Source: Octopus vulgaris (lineage: Eukaryota). From it: DNA of 64,000 nucleotides. The translations under genes were made by a program, and so were the position numbers. Location of the stretch: the NCBI GenBank assembly GCA_951406725.2, contig OX597820.1, positions 7,440,001 to 7,504,000 on the forward strand, read 5' to 3'. Positions 7,272 to 18,800 of this stretch are shown piece after piece (position 1 is the first letter of the stretch; each line of letters starts with the position of its first letter). The notes beneath the pieces were generated by a model. It worked only from the letters and a program-made list of their open reading frames with translations. It did not search any database and was not told the origin of the DNA.

Positions 7272-7420
7272 CGTGGTGTGGTGTGAGTGCACGAGTCCTG
7301 ATGTGCATAAGTGTGCATCTGTATGTTTGTTGATGAATCCATGTAGCTGCTGCTAGAATGTGTGTGAGTGTGCTTCTTGAAGTGGATACATGCATCAGGC
7401 TCAGTCGACGATGGCAGAAA

Positions 7421-8210
7421 GGGCGGATGAGAGCAGCAGGTAAACCAGGGTGGATGAGAGCAGAAGATAAACCAAGTTGGATGAGAGCAGAGGATAAACC
7501 CGGTGGATGAGAGTAGAAGATAAACCAGGGTGGATGAGAGCAGAAGATAAACCAGGGTGGATGAGAGCAGAAGATTAACCAGGGTGGATGAGAGCAGAAG
7601 ATAAACCAGGGTGGATGAGAGCAGAAGATAAACCAGGGTGGATGAGAGCAGAAGATTAACCAGGGTGGATGAGAGCAGAAGATAAACCAGGGTGGATGAG
7701 AGCAGAAGATTAACCAGGGTGGATGAGAGCAGAAGATTAACCAGGGTGGATGAGAGCAGAAGATAAACCAGGGTGGATGAGAGCAGAAGATTAACCAGGG
7801 TGGATGAGAGCAGAAGATAAACCAGGGTGGATGAGAGCAGAAGATTAACCAGGGTGGATGAGAGCAGAAGATAAACCAGGGTGGATGAGAGCAGAAGATT
7901 AACCAGGGTGGATGAGAGCAGAAGATAAACCAGGGTGGATGAGAGCAGAAGATTAACCAGGGTGGATGAGAGCAGAAGATAAACCCGGTGAATGAGAGCA
8001 GAAGATTAACCAAGGTGGATGAGAGCAGAAGATAAACCAGGGTGATGAGAGCAGAAGATTAAACCAGGGTGGATGAGAGCAGAATATAAACCAGGGTGGA
8101 TGAGAGCAGAAGATTAAACCAGTGTGGATGAGAGCAGAAGATAAACCAGGGTGGATGAGAGCAGAAGATAAACCAGTGTGGGTGAGAGCAGAAGATAAAC
8201 CCGGTGGATG
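7421..8210. repeat. 27-bp minisatellite (CCAGGGTGGATGAGAGCAGAAGAT[A/T]AA), about 29 copies
   Basis: Directly visible tandem array; near-perfect centre, degenerate edges. Confidence 0.97.
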
Positions 8211-8525
8211 AATATAAATAAAGTAGGATTTAAATATAAATAAAATATATATAAAAGTAAAAATATACATATATACATATAAGAATATTATAAAAAGAAA
8301 AAGAAGATATATTCATATTTACACATATTTTTGGGGTTGGGCGTTGACTGCTCATGAGTTCCTCCGCCCTTTGACGAGTCTTATTTTTCATCCTGCCGGA
8401 TGTCCAACAATCACCCTCCTCAACAGAAACGCCTGGTGGGATTACCAGTTGAGTCATCAAAGACCCGATCACGAAACAGAATGTACTGGGTTACATGTTA
8501 CATGTAGCATTCAAATGTGCACCCC

Positions 8526-9689: not shown

Positions 9690-11552
9690 GCGGATGAGAG
9701 CAGGAGAGGGCCTGATAAATGAACCTACTTATGGATATACTATCTTTTGGAGAGGACTGTCTGGGGGTCAGCATAGAGATTCTGGTGTTGGGTTTGCTCT
9801 CAAGAATTCGTTAGTATCCTTCATTGCACAACTTCCGAGTGGTATATCCGAACGAATCATGTCATGCCGTATAAAACTGACAAAGTGTAGGTTTCTTACC
9901 GTTGTCAGTATCTATGCACCAACAACGTCACATTCTGATGAAACTGTAGGACAGTTTTATCACGACCTAGCATAATTAATGAGACAAGTACCAACTTCTG
10001 ACGAGCTGGTCATATTGGAAGATTTCAAGGTAAGAGTTGGAAAGAATTATGTTTCATGGCCTGCTGTAGGTCGACATGGGATTGGAAAATGTAATAAAAA
10101 TGGATTAGCTCTTTTGACGTTTTGTACTGAGAATAATCAGTAACACTCTGCTTAAGCAGGAAAATAAATATAAAACCACCCAAGATTTAAGCCCTGGCAT
10201 CTCACAGATTATGTTTTGATCAGAAAACGTGATATGAAAGATGTCTCTAGCGTTCGAGCCATTGAGAGGAGCTGAGAGCTGAACTGACCATCGTCTAGAG
10301 CGTGGAAAAATACATTTTTCGATAATGCTTAAAAGTCAACAGTTTGGTCCTAAGGTACCTAAAAAGTTAAATGTTGCAAACTTTAAATTATCAAGCAACT
10401 TACAAAGAACCAAGATGCTAGAGGAAGTATCAATCTTGACTCAAACAATCTATGGGAAGATTTCAAAACAAAAGTACTCCAGGCGGCAAGCTCGCCAGAG
10501 AGATTCAAATCATTTATGTTCAGCGACTGGTTCTCAAAAAGATCAGCACAAATTCATAAACTACATTTAGAGAAACAAAACTTAGGCAATACACTTCTTT
10601 CTCAGTCTTTAAACCCCAACTCAAACGAAGCTTACTGAAAGGGAAAGTGCAGACTAAAATTAAACAGGAATGGTAGAATGATATTAAAAAAAAAAGGCAA
10701 GAAGCAGCTGATAGAAATGACACCAAGGGTTTGTACTCTTATGTTAAAGAGGTATATGATCCCAAATCGTCTTCAATAGCTCCAGTGAGAACAGGAAATG
10801 GACGTTTGCTTCTGACTGACACCGCTTCTATTTATAAGCGCTGGGTAGAACATTTCTCTGTACTTTTGAATAGACCATCGTCCGCTGACATGAGGACGAT
10901 AGAAAAAATCGAATGGCAGATGAACGCATGCCCAAACAACTGTTTTATGGTGAGCCCGCAGAGGGAAACGCTATCGATGTAAACCTAAAAAAAGATTTAA
11001 TGACGGTATAAGGACCTCCATGAAGTCACTTGGAATGGATCCAGAGGACATGGAATCTCTTGCTTCAGATCGGGCTGGATGGCGAACAAAAGTGTGGAGC
11101 GGAGTGGAAGTGCTTCAAGAGTCCACGATAACGCATGCAACACTCAAGAGAAATTTAAAGAATGATACGATCGAGAAGGTGAATCACAATGAACATTTTG
11201 TGTGCACAGATTGTGACAGACCATGCGTTTCTTTTACTGGGATGAAATCTCATTTGCGAACCCATGGAAAACGAACATCCACTAACTATTCTGGCTTTAT
11301 ATCTGTGCATACCTTTGGATGCAGTGTATGTCAGAAGGGTTGCAAATCTAACGGAGGCGCTCAAAAAATAATTTAAGATCCACAAAGATCAGAACTTAAT
11401 TGTAGCTCTTGGTGGTCCGAATCGGATACGCAATCTATGTGGATGTCTTTTCAAAACCTTTTCTGGTTTTAAAAACCACATCAGATACCGTGATGGTCCT
11501 AAGGTGTAGGTACAGGAGGTGGTCAAACTCTGCATAAGCAGTAGAAAACCAG
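9690..11552 (+). mobile_element. RTE-clade LINE relic: APE endonuclease + linker, RT deleted, C-terminus with three C2H2 zinc fingers
   Basis: APE motifs GYTIFWRG, SGVGFALKN, SIYAPT, ILEDFKVRVG, DH; jump near 10910 to RMADERMPKQLFYGE and DRAGWR; CTDC..HLRTH, CSVC..RSH; short 3' UTR then microsatellite tail; many stops and frameshifts. Confidence 0.9.
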
Positions 11553-13009: not shown

Positions 13010-14043
13010 TTTGAAATACACAACCATGCGGGAACAAAAACAAAACATATAAAAGAATGAATTACAATGAATTAAATTATAATGAATATGAAACGGTTTT
13101 CTCGGTCCTGCTCCGAGGCGAAACCGCGATTACTTTTTACAATTAAACGTTCTTAGAGTCTTTCCCCCCCCTTTTTTAGCTTGTTCTTTTTCTTAGTCTT
13201 TTTTTTTGTATCGTTTTTTTTCCTTTTTTCTTTAAACTTTTTAACAGTCTATTTTCTTCTTTTTTTTTATGAATTACAAATTTTACTTACCTGTTTTTAC
13301 ATATTCATAAAGGGTTTCAAATCTTCTAATTCCACGACCGACGGGAGCTCGTCAAACTCGACTTCAACCCCCAGCGGATCTATGAAAAGTCCATACATCT
13401 CTCTCAATTTCAAATATCTCTCTTTGTCTATGTCTATTCCTTTAGTGTATTCCGGGTATTTTCCTGGCGGCAGCTTTACTCTTATTGCCGATTTATATTT
13501 TACAATAGTTTTCTCTATTTATTTACTTTTGGAACACGTGACCAAATGCCTCTTGTATCCCTTCCTTTTCACCTCTGCTTGCTTCGGCTCCCGTCCTCAT
13601 CTGTTCGGGCGTACAGAAACATCGCACCCAATTTTATGAACGTTTGCTTTTTCTCCTTGTTGTAATGCTGTTTCTTCCCGTGTGCCTTCTTTCACTACTG
13701 CTTCTGTTAGTGCTTCACACCTATTTTTCTTTTCTTCCATCACAATCTCCTTTAACATTTTTTTGACTGTCTGGGAGAGAATTCACCCGTTCCTTTCTCT
13801 TCCTCGTGTTTACTACTGTGAAGTGTTCCTCCACTCTATCTGTCTCTTTCGTTGGTACTACCTCTTCGGAATTGCTTTCTCCACTTTTCTTCACCTCTTC
13901 GTTTTCCTTCTCGGGACATCTTCCTTTCACGTGCCCCTTTTTGCCGCATAGGAACCATGTGACTAACCCTTAAGGGTTAACCACATTTAGGTGGCAAATT
14001 ACTTCACGATGTCTTGCGGCTACAGTTTATACCTCACTCAGAG

Positions 14044-14090
<47 letters not shown>

Positions 14091-15460
14091 AAATAGCTAG
14101 TTGTGAAATATCAATATCGTTTTCCTTCTCGGGACATCTTGCTTTCATGTACCCCTTTTTGCCTCATAGGAAGCATGTTGGCGGTGTTCCTTCTACTGTA
14201 TTCCAAATCTGCTGTCTTTCAATCAATGACGTCTATTGAGGTGCATACAATTTCTGCCGTATTTTGTCAACAACATTTATTTGCAGTGTCATATGAAAAT
14301 GTCCCTATTAGTTATGACATTTCATATCAGTTACGTTCGTATGAATAAAAGATTATCGTTATTAAACTTTTATTAATGCGACACATACTCTAAGTTCATA
14401 ACATACGCAGTTTTACTTTCCCTCTCTGTTGCACAGATACACACATTATATATGCATTATATATATATTATATATTCGTTTAAGAAACAGATTGGGTTTA
14501 TTTACATTCCTGAAGAAAAAAGATACCCTTCCCCCACCCCTAAGCCTAACCCCTAACCCTAACCCTCACTCTAACCCTAACCCTAGCTCTAACCCTAACT
14601 CTAAAACAGATTGAAATGCAATAGATCGATACTAGGGTCATAATTATAGGTGGACACTAAATAGGGAACGGTTTTGTTATCCATCTCTGTTTATGAGTGA
14701 TCCTCAGTTTATGGCCACAGGGTATCATTTTTTCTCATAAATATCAGTGACAAATTCATATGACACCGCCAGAAAATGTTGTTGACAAAATACGGCAGAT
14801 ATTTTATTCACCTCAATAGACGTCATTGATTGGTTGAAAATGCCGAAATGCAAGAAAATAAACAACAAATAGCTTACAAACTACAGAATTTTCTCAAGAA
14901 AGCCAAGAGGAAAAGATGTTTTATGTAACACATTCTACCAGTAGACGAAGTTTAAAAGTGTTTAGTTACAAAGAAATTATTTTTAAAATCTGCCGGTTAA
15001 AGTGAAAAGATCCGTGCTACTTCTATCTTGTTCGAGGACGTAGATGACGTTCTGTATACTAACTACCGTCTTCTTTTCTATGTTTTTCATCAGTTCTTCA
15101 GGGGGAGTCAGCTTTAGACTATTTCCCTCCTTTTTTTTTACAAATTTTCTTCCTTCCTTCCTCTTTCTTGTGTCCATTTCTATTTCTTGAAATTCCAGGC
15201 TGTTGGCATTTATTCCTTGTGTCGTTGCCGCTGCGTAACTTTATCTATTCCCCATCTTTCTTCACTCCTGCCGTAGACGGGGATTATACAGGTACAAACG
15301 AACCAGTGACTGAAATCCAACAATTTACACAATCCAACGAATCTTGGTTTACCTGCGCAGGGAAACCTACAACAAACATACAATATCAGTGTGTAACGAT
15401 TCGAACTCACATCGAAGAAATCACTATCAACACTCATTAGTGACAATCGCCAGTTATCTC
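13010..15460 (-). mobile_element. Tx1/L1-like ORF1-only retroelement relic, interrupted by a MITE
   Basis: Minus strand: N-terminal piece MDTRKRK..EELMKNIEKKTVV (15200-15010); TVEGTPPTCFL.GKKG.MKARCP and LCGKKGHVKGRCP CCHC knuckle (14215-14120, duplicated at 13960-13905); K/E-rich linker; C-terminal ..LEDLKPFMNM* near 13298; then ~290-nt 3' UTR with no ORF2. Confidence 0.65.
14221..15005. mobile_element. MITE-like element with long inverted repeats and internal (CCCTAA)n
   Basis: Inverted repeat 14221..14303 / 14748..14831; telomere-like hexamers at 14538..14604. Confidence 0.7.
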
Positions 15461-16248
15461 TCTCTTTATTAGAGGCACAGAGGGGGCATGCACAAACATG
15501 CGGTAACAAAAAAAACACATGAAAGAATGAATTACGATGATTTTAAATTATAATGAATATGAGACGATTTTCTCGGTCCTGCTCCGAGACGAAACCGTGA
15601 TTACTTTTTTAAAATTAAACGTTCTTAAAGTCTTTTTTCTGCCCCCACCCACTTTTTTTAGCTCGTTCTTTTTCTTAGTCTTTTGTTTGTTTGCTTTTTG
15701 TATCGATTTTTTTTTTCCTTTTCTTTATACATTTTAACAGGTGCAAACGAACCAGTGACTGAAATTCAATAATTTACACGATCCAACGAATCTTAGTTCA
15801 CCCGCGCGGGGGAACCTACAACAAAGTGCGTAACAATTTGAACTCACATCAAAGAAATCACTACCAACACCCAATAGTGACAACCAACGGTTTTCTCTTC
15901 ATTATAGGCACAAGGCCTGAATACAGAGGGGACATACACAAACATGCGGGAACAAAAAAGGAACATATGAAAGAATGAATTACAATGATTTTAAATTATA
16001 ATGAATATGAGACGGTCATCTCGGTCCCGCTCTGAGACGAAACCATGATTACTTTTTACAATTAAACGTTCTTACAGACTTTTTTCTTTTTTTCAGCTTG
16101 TTCTTTTTCTTAGCCTGTTTTTTTGTTTGTTTGTTTTTGTATCGTTTTGTTTTTTTCTCTTTTCTTTATACATTTTAACAGGTGAAAACGAAACAGTGAC
16201 TGAAATCTAAAAATTTACACCATCCAACGAATCTTGGTTCACCCGCTC
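15288..16248 (-). repeat. ~445-bp tandem repeat (2 units + partial) made of the 5' and 3' ends of the adjacent ORF1-only element
   Basis: CAGGT.AAACGAACCAGTGACTGAAAT recurs near 15289, 15738 and 16179; the second half of each unit matches 13020..13248. Confidence 0.85.
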
Positions 16249-16678
16249 GTGATTTACCTTAACTTTGCAAAGGCATTTGATAAGGTAGCCCAAGAAATGA
16301 TATGTCATAAGACAGTGACCATTGATGGTAAACTGGAAGAGTGGCTGCATGATTCCCTTAAAGAGAGAAATCAGGCAGTTGCAGCCTATGGTAGCCTTGA
16401 CTAAACTCAAATTCTAAGTGGCGTCCCTCAGGAAACTGTTCTGGGGTCATTACTGTTCATAATGATTCGCGTAGACATGCCCACGGTCACTCGGACAGCC
16501 ACTGTTACTAGCTATTTCAATAATACAAAATTATCACTGGCAATAAAATATCAAGAGGATGTCGCAATCTTACAACGGAACCTGAATTCGATATACAGAT
16601 GGACCGGAATAAACAATATGCAGTAGGACCCAAAGGCACTATAGTACCTGAGTCACAAGCAGTGAAAGACTTGGGGTA
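16248..16678 (+). mobile_element. CR1/L2-group LINE reverse transcriptase fragment
   Basis: VIYLNFAKAFDKV, SGVPQETVLGSLLF, decayed FADDTK (YFNNTK), LQRNLNSIYRW. Confidence 0.8.
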
Positions 16679-17109: not shown

Positions 17110-17208
17110 TTCCTTGCTTTTCCTGATGAGAAAGCGGCATAATGTACTCCTTATTCCGTCGCAATTAGGAATATGCAGCCTTCGAAACATATGTCGAAAA
17201 TAAAGGAA
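17110..17208 (+). ncRNA. Type I hammerhead ribozyme (intact core)
   Basis: TTCCTTGCTTTTC-CTGATGA(17123..17129)-GAAAGCGGCATA...TATGCAGCCTTC-GAAAC-ATAT-GTC^GAAAATAAAGGAA; stem I 11/13 bp, stem II 10/12 bp, palindromic stem III ACATATGT; cleavage after 17195. Confidence 0.88.
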
Positions 17209-17244
17209 TTTTGTTAATTCGTCGTTCAGCTCCATTCTTTCATA

Positions 17245-17329: not shown

Positions 17330-18800
17330 AATGTGTACAAATACCAAGGAAAAATAAATAAATAGTTACTAGAATAGCAAAAATTCACGTAAGTGTCAAG
17401 GATATTACAGCCTACTTATAAAGGTGGCAATTCCAGGGTTAATTGAAATGTTCTTAGTAAAACATGGATAAATTAAGAAATCGAGTCAAAAGCAGATCTT
17501 ATTCAAATTACTTTCACTCCCGTCATATGTTTCGATAAATGTTTTGAGATTATTTCGGCGGGAATAAAGGTGATGTAAAACAATGCAATCATCTCGTCAG
17601 GGTAAGAAAGGAAGAAAACACATCAATAAGCCATTTCAACCGACTGTGATTACCGCAGCAATTTCATATTTTCTGAAGAATATTTTTTTTAATCTAGCGA
17701 AAGTTATTTCCACAATAGTGTCTGATGCAAATACGCAGGACCTTCGAATTCAGGACCTCAGAACAACACTAGACGAGAAACACTATCCACAATTAAAACT
17801 GCCAAGAAAACAGACATCGAAATACTAAGGGAGACAAAACGAAATTCCGCACCACATATAAAAAATACTATCCTGTATATAGACACACAACCCTAGAAAC
17901 AATGAGGCATACAACACCATTATTCAAAACCTCCCAAAGCTCACAAGTGATCTAAATAGGAACCATATGCAAAAATCCAAATCACTAAAAAGACTAATGA
18001 CACATGCGAAACTATACTCAGCAACAATGAAACTAATAGTTAAAAAATGCGGACGTCCAAATTGTGGAACATGCTCCAACCTACTGGAAGGTTCCGAATT
18101 CCATCTTAAAGAAGGACAGAAATTCACCACTAGGACCAATTTCACTTGTGCAAGGTAATGTAATTTATATGATAACTTGTTCTTGTTGTAGAGACAACTA
18201 TAAAAGCCAAACAATGATGTCACTTTAATGGAGGACTACTCTGCATAAGGAACAGATCAATTTCCTGTGTTATAGACAGATACCTCTGAGTGAACATATA
18301 GTGAGATGTACAAGGAATCTGCTACCAAACTCCAAGGTTTTCCTCATCTACCAGTGCCAGAAACAATTTCTATATACGAAGAATTAAATATAGAAGATAT
18401 ATTTATTGACAAATACAAACCACTTTCAAATATGAACGTATAGCCAATTTTCGGTTATGTAAATATTTTAATTCATGAACGCATAACCGACGCTCTGTAA
18501 ATTTTATCTCACTACTTTAACTCATGAGTTTATATAAATTAATCCCAAGTGCAATTACCTCCCCTCTCTCGAATAGTAACAATCACCGTTAACCTCCCCT
18601 TAGATTATTTCTACATACTTATTCATTTATAAATAAACTCTCATACCGACAACATGGACTAAAAATACGAAATTGCTATATTTTCACCGATTTCAAAGTC
18701 ATGATTAGCGAAACGTGAAAACGGTCGACAATGATAGTATTCTATCCTTTTAAATATATTAAAAATATATAAATCGTGTGCATTTACCTTCTTTTATTAC
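17330..18800 (+). mobile_element. Penelope-like element, 5'-truncated (RT thumb, Cys-rich linker, GIY-YIG endonuclease) preceded by an inverted pLTR-like segment
   Basis: NIFFNLAKVISTIVSD..LDEKHYP (17678+), KCGRPNCGTC..FTC, NVIYMITCSCCRDNYKSQT (GIY-YIG-like), stops and frameshifts; flanked by (TA)n. Confidence 0.85.
17511..17610 (-). ncRNA. Type I hammerhead ribozyme with mutated cleavage triplet (GAC)
   Basis: Minus strand CTTTCTTACC-CTGACGA-GATGA...TTATC-GAAAC-ATAT-GAC-GGGAGTGAAAG. Confidence 0.65.

What the first reader, a model, noticed from the sequence alone, without database searches (positions are those of the whole stretch)
13010..16248. ORF1-only half-LINE sitting head-to-tail with its own internally deleted SINE-like offspring
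Seen on the minus strand: a ~170-nt leader (with B-box-like GAGTTCGAATC near 15397..15407) leads into an ORF1-like frame with a CCHC knuckle that stops near 13298 and is followed directly by a 3' UTR with a conserved hairpin (CGGTTTTCTCGG..CCGAG.CGAAACCG); no endonuclease or RT. Upstream lie ~445-nt units in which the same leader is fused to the same 3' UTR through a CTGT microhomology. Established: HAL1 elements are ORF1-only L1 derivatives, and some SINEs arise by internal LINE deletion. Inference: a three-tier LINE / half-LINE / mini-element system captured at one locus.
Basis: partly seen in the sequence, partly recalled or inferred. Interest (0 to 1): 0.7.

Follow-up and report, generated by a model that had tools for sequence, protein, structure and literature searches.

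The report
Half-LINE that homes to ribozyme repeats
This is a broken stack of copies of a jumping gene that carries only a predicted RNA-binding protein gene and no copying enzyme; most copies elsewhere in the genome sit at one spot just before the predicted self-cutting RNA motif of a small repeat, and it likely gets there by borrowing the enzyme of complete relatives found at the same spot.

Summary
The ORF1-only element is real: a dispersed ~1.8-kb family (leader, one zinc-knuckle ORF, 3' UTR ending AATAAA), with no sense-strand ORF2 in 30 of 30 loci. Of 25 copies with a 3' end, 23 end at one site of a ~350-nt hammerhead (retrozyme, Penelope-type) repeat, with 14-16-nt target duplications. 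Other ORF1-only families and complete APE-RT LINEs of L1/Tx1 type use the same site. The two junctions between units in the window are copies of that site. ORF1 is under purifying selection between RT-less families. The 'SINE-like offspring' is not supported: its junction occurs 3 times in 2.8 Gb, never alone; the 'B-box' overlaps a GTGAGT motif shared by many leaders. The window copy is decayed: interrupted, about 390 nt of ORF missing, 3' end lost. Likely mechanism: trans-mobilised half-Tx1 that borrows the host repeat's snRNA-like promoter and sometimes rides along when the repeat is copied. Not found in print (8 searches), but this scan already noted the same system on other DNA of this genome.

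The parts
15891..16249 (-). Mini-unit 1, 5'-truncated: leader positions 81-157 fused at CTGT to the 3' UTR
15877..15890 (-). Junction 1: 14-nt copy of the hammerhead-repeat target site (target duplication shared by neighbouring units)
   Evidence: same word occurs once in empty host sites
15454..15876 (-). Mini-unit 2: leader 1-157 fused at CTGT to the 3' UTR, ending AATAAAGAGAGA
15440..15453 (-). Junction 2: second 14-nt copy of the target site
15273..15439 (-). Leader (5' UTR) of the ORF1-only element; GTGAGT motif overlapping the B-box-like word at 15398-15410
15016..15255 (-). ORF1 N-terminal piece (ATG at 15255, read), decayed
14219..15015 (.). Unrelated multicopy insert with inverted arms (14220-14317 / 14735-14832) and a (CCCTAA)n tract; about 390 nt of ORF1 are missing here
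14117..14218 (-). ORF1 middle piece with a broken knuckle; its last 62 nt recur at 13899-13960 (92% identical)
13957..14087 (+). (TA)n (14047-14087) plus inverted piece of the hammerhead host repeat (13966-14054) and a short direct piece (13957-13977): a Penelope-style 5' end
13297..13960 (-). ORF1 C-terminal part (partial knuckle, acidic/basic region, conserved C-terminus), stop at 13299-13297; 5.6% from the family majority
13013..13296 (-). 3' UTR with hairpin (about 13093-13127), cut off before the AATAAA end; no hammerhead follows here

Best explanation
The locus is a decayed head-to-tail stack of an ORF1-only retroelement family whose copies sit at one site just upstream of the predicted hammerhead core of a small Penelope-type repeat, and which is likely inserted there by the endonuclease and reverse transcriptase of complete L1/Tx1-type LINEs that use the same site. 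Steps: (1) shown: one ORF, no ORF2, dispersed copies, target duplications, 5' truncations, one preferred site, complete LINEs at that site. (2) Shown for three copies and inferred for the family: passage through RNA (one-strand A-to-G excess). (3) Inferred: transcription starts at an snRNA-like promoter of the host repeat about 23 nt upstream of the leader, so landing there supplies a promoter. (4) Inferred: ORF1 protein coats its own RNA and helps recruit the partner's ORF2 protein. (5) Inferred: each insertion rebuilds the target, so units of the same or other families stack; the 445-nt units are internal deletions made at a 4-nt microhomology, copied only once or twice. (6) Inferred: filled repeats are sometimes recopied whole by Penelope machinery.
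For: Family of 47 matches at 78-93% identity besides the window's own; no sense ORF2 in 30 of 30 family loci nor upstream of 30 of 36 exact 3'-end matches examined. 3' flanks of 29 copies: 20 host hammerhead unit, 3 target word only, 1 a different hammerhead, 1 other, 4 without a 3' end. Of 29 host hits other than the query, 19 are empty with one copy of the word, 9 are filled by other cassettes, 1 is deleted (by eye; the script gave 17 empty, 10 filled incl. the query, 3 no site, and miscalled L114 and L128). 5'-truncated copies L021 and L019 carry 15-nt duplications of their own targets. ORF1-only families only 27-71% identical to the queries fill the same site (L141, L142, L144). A LINE with an open 1146-aa APE/RT/zf-RVT frame sits at the same site with a 20-nt duplication (L175); L212, L213, L237 likewise end there and a leader of that family directly follows the element in L011 and L028. 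dN/dS 0.09-0.19 in 11 of 12 computable pairs of ORF1-only families. A>G vs T>C: 51/0, 26/2, 22/3 in 3 of 22 copies. Hosts differ by 23% on average, cassettes by 11%. ATYAGT lies 57-61 nt before 18 of 20 U2 genes and ATCAG 58-65 nt before an ATCG-like start in 18 of 27 hosts.
Against: The last 20-30 nt of the same-site complete LINEs differ from the element's tail, while a young (ATT)n-targeting LINE has a closer tail, so the partner is not pinned down. A sister family with the same last 26 nt lands at unrelated sites (12 of 30 such ends had a hammerhead match). Several 5'-truncated copies (L004, L007, L018, L026) show no host sequence at their 5' junction. In the window itself neither outer end touches a hammerhead. 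The clade name Tx1 rests on domain content, targeting and literature, not on a tree with reference elements. Many dS values exceed 1, one pair gave 0.6 and 3 of 15 were saturated. The promoter is a motif-spacing argument only.
Confidence: 0.75

Rival explanations
1. The ORF1 cassette is cargo of a non-autonomous Penelope-like element (repeat-ORF1-repeat) and spreads mainly by Penelope reverse transcriptase; the LINE-type insertion happened only once or a few times.
For: Many loci run (TA)n, inverted repeat, repeat, cassette, repeat, (TA)n, the Penelope layout in PMC8557442 (passages). In L011 the inverted 5' copy includes ORF end, UTR and hammerhead. The 5 copies in host subtype A2 lie on one branch of the cassette tree (SH-aLRT 95). 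The window's 3' unit starts behind an inverted host piece.
Against: Hosts are twice as divergent as cassettes and the Mantel test is not significant (r 0.24, p 0.09); the same family sits before a different hammerhead with its own duplication (L021) and at a non-hammerhead site (L019); cassette-cassette junctions carry only the target word, no hammerhead; many unrelated families, including complete LINEs, share the site. Best seen as a secondary route.
Confidence: 0.15
2. One reading: the 445-nt unit is a Pol III SINE-like family born from the half-LINE.
For: The junction exists at a second locus inside the host site (L032) and as a joint in an independent run of contigs (791 to 2218, depth 70), so the unit was copied at least once.
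Against: 3 hits in 2.8 Gb with up to 2 mismatches; never seen alone between two target duplications; B-box word not conserved; a T-run lies in the UTR before the tail, which would stop Pol III (established knowledge).
Confidence: 0.05
3. The family is an ordinary complete LINE whose copies lost ORF2 by deletion after insertion.
For: Internal deletions are common in these copies.
Against: The same ORF1-to-UTR join in copies on many contigs; a 32-row ORF1 branch (support 96/94) holds no ORF2-linked row; purifying selection between such families.
Confidence: 0.03

Closest known systems
ORF1-present non-autonomous LINEs: HAL1 (L1 clade), HeT-A (Jockey), Ag-Sponge (CR1) (PMC5786205 and PMC5753468, passages)
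   Same: One ORF1-type gene, no RT, LINE-like 3' end, target duplications, 5' truncation; head-to-tail arrays as in HeT-A (recalled).
   Different: ORF1 is of the knuckle-bearing Tx1-like type; strict target site inside another mobile repeat; many diverged RT-less families. The passages read list no Tx1-derived member.
Target-specific Tx1-clade LINEs (Tx1L in Tx1D, Keno in U2, Tx1-Mar in Mariner-N4) and SINEU-3 (PMC4494074, passages)
   Same: Insertion at a fixed site in another repeat, shared by autonomous and non-autonomous partners; possible reliance on flanking transcription.
   Different: The target is a hammerhead retrozyme, and the passenger is protein-coding, not an snRNA-headed SINE.
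Animal non-LTR retrozymes / Penelope pseudo-LTRs (bioRxiv 10.64898/2026.07.22.740005, part 1 of 5; PMC8557442, passages)
   Same: The host: ~350-nt unit, minimal type I hammerhead, partial tandems, inverted 5' copy, (TA)n flanks.
   Different: Here it is the landing site of LINE-type elements and sometimes seems to carry them.
Bipartite non-coding LINE derivatives (RIME, Bov-A, Vingi derivatives; PMC5786205, passages)
   Same: The 445-nt unit has the 5'+3' make-up.
   Different: It never amplified (3 copies).

Membership tests
ORF1-only non-autonomous LINE (HAL1-like) | Single ORF1-type gene joined to a LINE 3' end with no ORF2, in many dispersed copies | tested here: met
ORF1-only non-autonomous LINE (HAL1-like) | Signs of target-primed insertion (duplications, 5' truncation, A-rich end) | tested here: met
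   clear in L005, L006, L013, L014, L016, L019, L021, weak or absent in L003, L022, L027 (13 examined)
ORF1-only non-autonomous LINE (HAL1-like) | ORF1 kept by selection | tested here: met
   dN/dS 0.09-0.19 in 11 of 12 computable pairs; many dS near saturation
ORF1-only non-autonomous LINE (HAL1-like) | Mobilised in trans by a named autonomous partner | tested here: inconclusive
   target matches L175/L213-type LINEs, tail is closer to L241-type
HAL1 in the strict sense (mammalian L1 derivative) | ORF1 derived from L1-clade ORF1 (coiled coil, RRM, CTD, no knuckle; recalled) | tested here: not met
   zf-CCHC in 13 of 13 aligned proteins and no L1 ORF1 family among the Pfam hits; ZCCHC3-like domains by language-model features, a lead at score 0.91
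Tx1 clade (partner LINEs) | APE + RT + zf-RVT ORF2 of the L1 group with knuckle ORF1 | tested here: met
   best solved-structure match human L1 ORF2p E 4e-64 versus R2 4e-25
Tx1 clade (partner LINEs) | Placement inside Tx1 on an RT tree with reference elements | not tested
   no named Tx1 reference among the 120 listed hits
SINE (445-nt unit) | Dispersed multicopy family with its own target duplications | tested here: not met
   3 junction hits genome-wide, none solo
SINE (445-nt unit) | Pol III small-RNA head (A and B box) | tested here: not met
   head is the element's own leader; B-box word in 1 of 18 leaders; no Rfam match in the window
Non-LTR retrozyme (host repeat) | Type I hammerhead in short tandem units, no ORF | tested here: met
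   core, stems I and II and GUC-type site parsed in 12 of 30 loci scanned; tandem empty units; no Rfam hit at gathering score
Non-LTR retrozyme (host repeat) | Self-cleavage and circular RNA | not testable with these tools
   needs in vitro transcription or small-RNA data

The most novel reading that the evidence does not exclude
An old, diversified lineage of RT-less, ORF1-coding retroelements exploits two unrelated retrotransposon machineries: it enters a hammerhead retrozyme through a site-specific Tx1-type LINE, takes over the retrozyme's snRNA-like promoter, and is then also spread as cargo by Penelope elements that copy the retrozyme. That is a passenger of a parasite of a parasite, which can change partner and target without owning an enzyme.
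Probability: 0.3. Interest if true: 0.75.

Novelty: new variant of a known kind. Interest (0 to 1): 0.5.

Why it matters
ORF1-only LINE derivatives are listed for the L1, Jockey and CR1 clades (PMC5786205 passages); a site-specific one of Tx1 type that lands in ribozyme repeats was not found in print. It gives a natural test of two open questions: what ORF1 protein adds in cis for an element that borrows ORF2, and whether target choice is set by the partner's endonuclease, by the RNA tail, or by the position of a promoter, since sister families with nearly the same tail use different sites. The locus itself is an old, broken example.

Tried and rejected
The repeat finder on the whole window was swamped by microsatellites. 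Rfam at gathering score found nothing in 8 sources; minimal hammerheads were parsed by motif instead. A homologue search with an intact ORF1 returned 1 unnamed protein. The structure job had not finished, so no fold comparison was made and the RNA-binding domains stay predicted. Sequencing runs: no RNA holder listed; only contigs were laid, so nothing on expression; a 44-nt intron-like stretch in the leader (GTGAGT to TTGTAG) was not among the joints shown, with 20 joints not displayed. LTR/gag reading rejected: most copies have no terminal repeat of their own. The UTR hairpin is not a hammerhead (no core). The loose hammerhead flags gave false positives (L104, L150) and were not used; L092's end was miscalled there. 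A Penelope RT/GIY-YIG with an inverted related hammerhead unit (L153) hints at the host's origin, but no complete autonomous Penelope with this exact repeat was found; the genome search for it was not repeated. Bao and Jurka 2010 is not held. Literature searches: 0 hits; 0 hits. Supplements were not opened; the repeat library of PMC13282606 and Repbase could hold these families under other names.

Full report
Setting. The window lies on contig C7 of a 2.8-Gb animal assembly. That it is an octopus-type cephalopod is inferred from size, microsatellite load and the nearest named relative of the partner RT (Argonauta hians).

What is at the locus. On the minus strand: a 5'-truncated mini-unit (16249-15891), a 14-nt word, a second mini-unit (15876-15454), the same word again, a leader (15439-15273), and a coding region in pieces down to a stop at 13299-13297, followed by a 3' UTR cut off at 13013. 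The frame is not continuous. About 390 nt are missing where an ~800-nt multicopy insert with inverted arms sits (14219-15015), and at 13961-14116 (TA)n and an inverted piece of another repeat separate two ORF pieces that share 62 nt. Neither knuckle copy is intact. There may be two cassette copies here rather than one; I could not decide this.

The family. The ORF C-terminal part has 47 matches among 40 scored candidates; 30 loci were fetched. Full copies are about 1.8 kb: leader, one ORF, UTR, AATAAAGAGAAA. The best-preserved frame (L008, 394 aa) has a zf-CCHC. An intact relative resembles ZCCHC3 RNA-binding domains plus knuckle by language-model features (score 0.91, a lead). ORF2 queries found no sense-strand hit in any of the 30 loci (one antisense hit, L017), none in the window, and none within 1.5 kb upstream of 30 of 36 exact matches to the last 26 nt. 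Copies are 3-12% from the family majority; the window copy is 5.6%. The family is old.

The target. Directly after the AATAAA end most copies show the 14-nt word, then CTGATGA-stem-GAAA-GTC, a minimal type I hammerhead. Of 29 copies, 20 are followed by this host unit, 3 by the word only, 1 by a different hammerhead, 1 by another sequence, and 4 lack a 3' end. The host is a ~350-nt repeat with 2712 first-look candidates. It occurs in partial tandems with inverted 5' copies and (TA)n flanks, the layout described for Penelope-like elements and retrozymes (PMC8557442 passages; bioRxiv 2026.07.22.740005 part 1 of 5). Of 29 host hits besides the query, 19 are empty with one copy of the word, 9 are filled by other cassettes and 1 is deleted (by eye; one search's script miscalled two). 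The word is therefore a target-site duplication. Two 5'-truncated copies confirm this with 15-nt duplications of their own, different targets (L021, L019). The two junction words in the window (15440-15453, 15877-15890) are this target, so the stack was likely built at such a site although no hammerhead now flanks it.

Who else uses the site. ORF1-only families 27-71% identical to the queries (L141, L142, L144), others in related hammerhead hosts (L099, L109), and complete LINEs. L175 has an open 1146-aa endonuclease/RT/zf-RVT frame and a 20-nt duplication ending 6 nt before the hammerhead core. L177-L179 sit in a related host. An older complete family ends at the same site in L212, L213 and L237, and its leader follows our element directly in L011 and L028. 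These ORF2s are of the L1 group. Tx1 is the likely clade from knuckle ORF1, zf-RVT and targeting (PMC4494074 passages), but I built no tree with references. Against a simple pairing, their last 20-30 nt differ from the half-element's tail, and a young (ATT)n-targeting LINE has the closer tail.

History of the RT-less state. In a tree of 62 ORF1 segments, a branch of 32 rows (support 96/94) holds the window family and no row with ORF2 behind it (26 ORF1-only, 6 unresolved). ORF1-only rows also occur outside it, so there is more than one origin or a deeper one. Sampling was biased: half-elements were found with an ORF1 query and complete ones mostly with an ORF2 query. dN/dS between ORF1-only families is 0.09-0.19 in 11 of 12 computable pairs, 0.6 in one, and 3 of 15 were saturated. 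Three of 22 copies show a strong one-strand A-to-G excess, which fits editing of an RNA intermediate (lead from e1-10342290).

The mini-units. The exact junction occurs 3 times in the genome with up to 2 mismatches: twice here and once at C7:7623641, where the unit sits in the host site and is followed by the word and another leader. The same joint appears in contigs of an independent run, so it is not an assembly error. Other arrays contain deletion units with other breakpoints (L012, L029, L044, L047, L052). The B-box-like word is in 1 of 18 leaders, while the overlapping GTGAGT is in 10 of 18, complete LINEs included. These are by-products, not a SINE family.

Promoter. Following earlier notes I compared U2 genes with the host. 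ATYAGT lies 57-61 nt before 18 of 20 U2 genes; the other two are preceded by a LINE end. ATCAG lies 58-65 nt before an ATCG-like word in 18 of 27 hosts, about 23 nt upstream of the insertion point. This fits an snRNA-type promoter captured by insertion. It is spacing evidence only.

Second route. Hosts differ by 23%, cassettes by 11%, and their distances correlate weakly (p 0.09), which favours repeated insertion into already diverged hosts. But all 5 copies in one host subtype share a branch, and in L011 the inverted 5' copy includes cassette sequence. Filled units were therefore likely recopied whole at times, by the machinery that copies the host.

Comparison and novelty. It works like HAL1, HeT-A and Ag-Sponge (PMC5786205, PMC5753468 passages) but fails strict HAL1 membership on ORF1 type. 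It shares targeting logic with Tx1L, Tx1-Mar and SINEU-3. Eight searches found no description of an ORF1-only Tx1-type element or of a hammerhead target. A recent octopus repeat annotation lists active L1-Tx1 and Penelope families but has no hit for ORF1, hammerhead or non-autonomous (PMC13282606 passages; supplements not opened).

Verdict. Interest 0.5.

Noticed in passing
window 16240-16560 (+): Decayed RT fragment (YLNFAKAFDKV ... GVPQETVLG; CR1-like by recalled motif) that abuts the 5' end of the stack.
   Followed up: partly
window 17123-17210 (+) and 17574-18300 (+): A hammerhead-like core with a long stem II, and a separate decayed Penelope-like RT end / GIY-YIG fragment, upstream of the stack.
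   Followed up: no
window 10677-11376 (+): Decayed RTE-like LINE fragments (label recalled).
   Followed up: no
window 14219-15015; L044 2163-2840: The same DNA-transposon-like repeat interrupts this ORF1 family at two loci, each with loss of adjacent ORF; the window copy contains a (CCCTAA)n tract.
   Followed up: partly
L241-L245: A very young 5.9-kb complete LINE, many open 1145-aa frames, in tandem arrays at (ATT)n; its tail resembles the half-element's.
   Followed up: partly
L104/L150, L105/L151, L106: Long mixed arrays of ORF1-only units at non-hammerhead targets; L105 and L106 start about 30 nt behind a TATA-like box of another repeat.
   Followed up: partly
L172, L173, L180: A complete LINE family inserted at one base of a very common short repeat with a 14-nt duplication.
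   Followed up: no
L181, L186, L190, L193, L198, L202, L206, L210: A sister family with the same last 26 nt, mostly 5'-truncated, at unrelated sites, with 9-15-nt duplications in several copies.
   Followed up: partly
L169-L171, L176-L179: Hammerhead-like hosts with a variant core (TTGA instead of CTGA) that are also LINE targets.
   Followed up: no
L257, L264: U2 genes directly preceded by the 3' end of the L179-type LINE.
   Followed up: no
window 7420-8211: 27-nt minisatellite, 29 copies.
   Followed up: no
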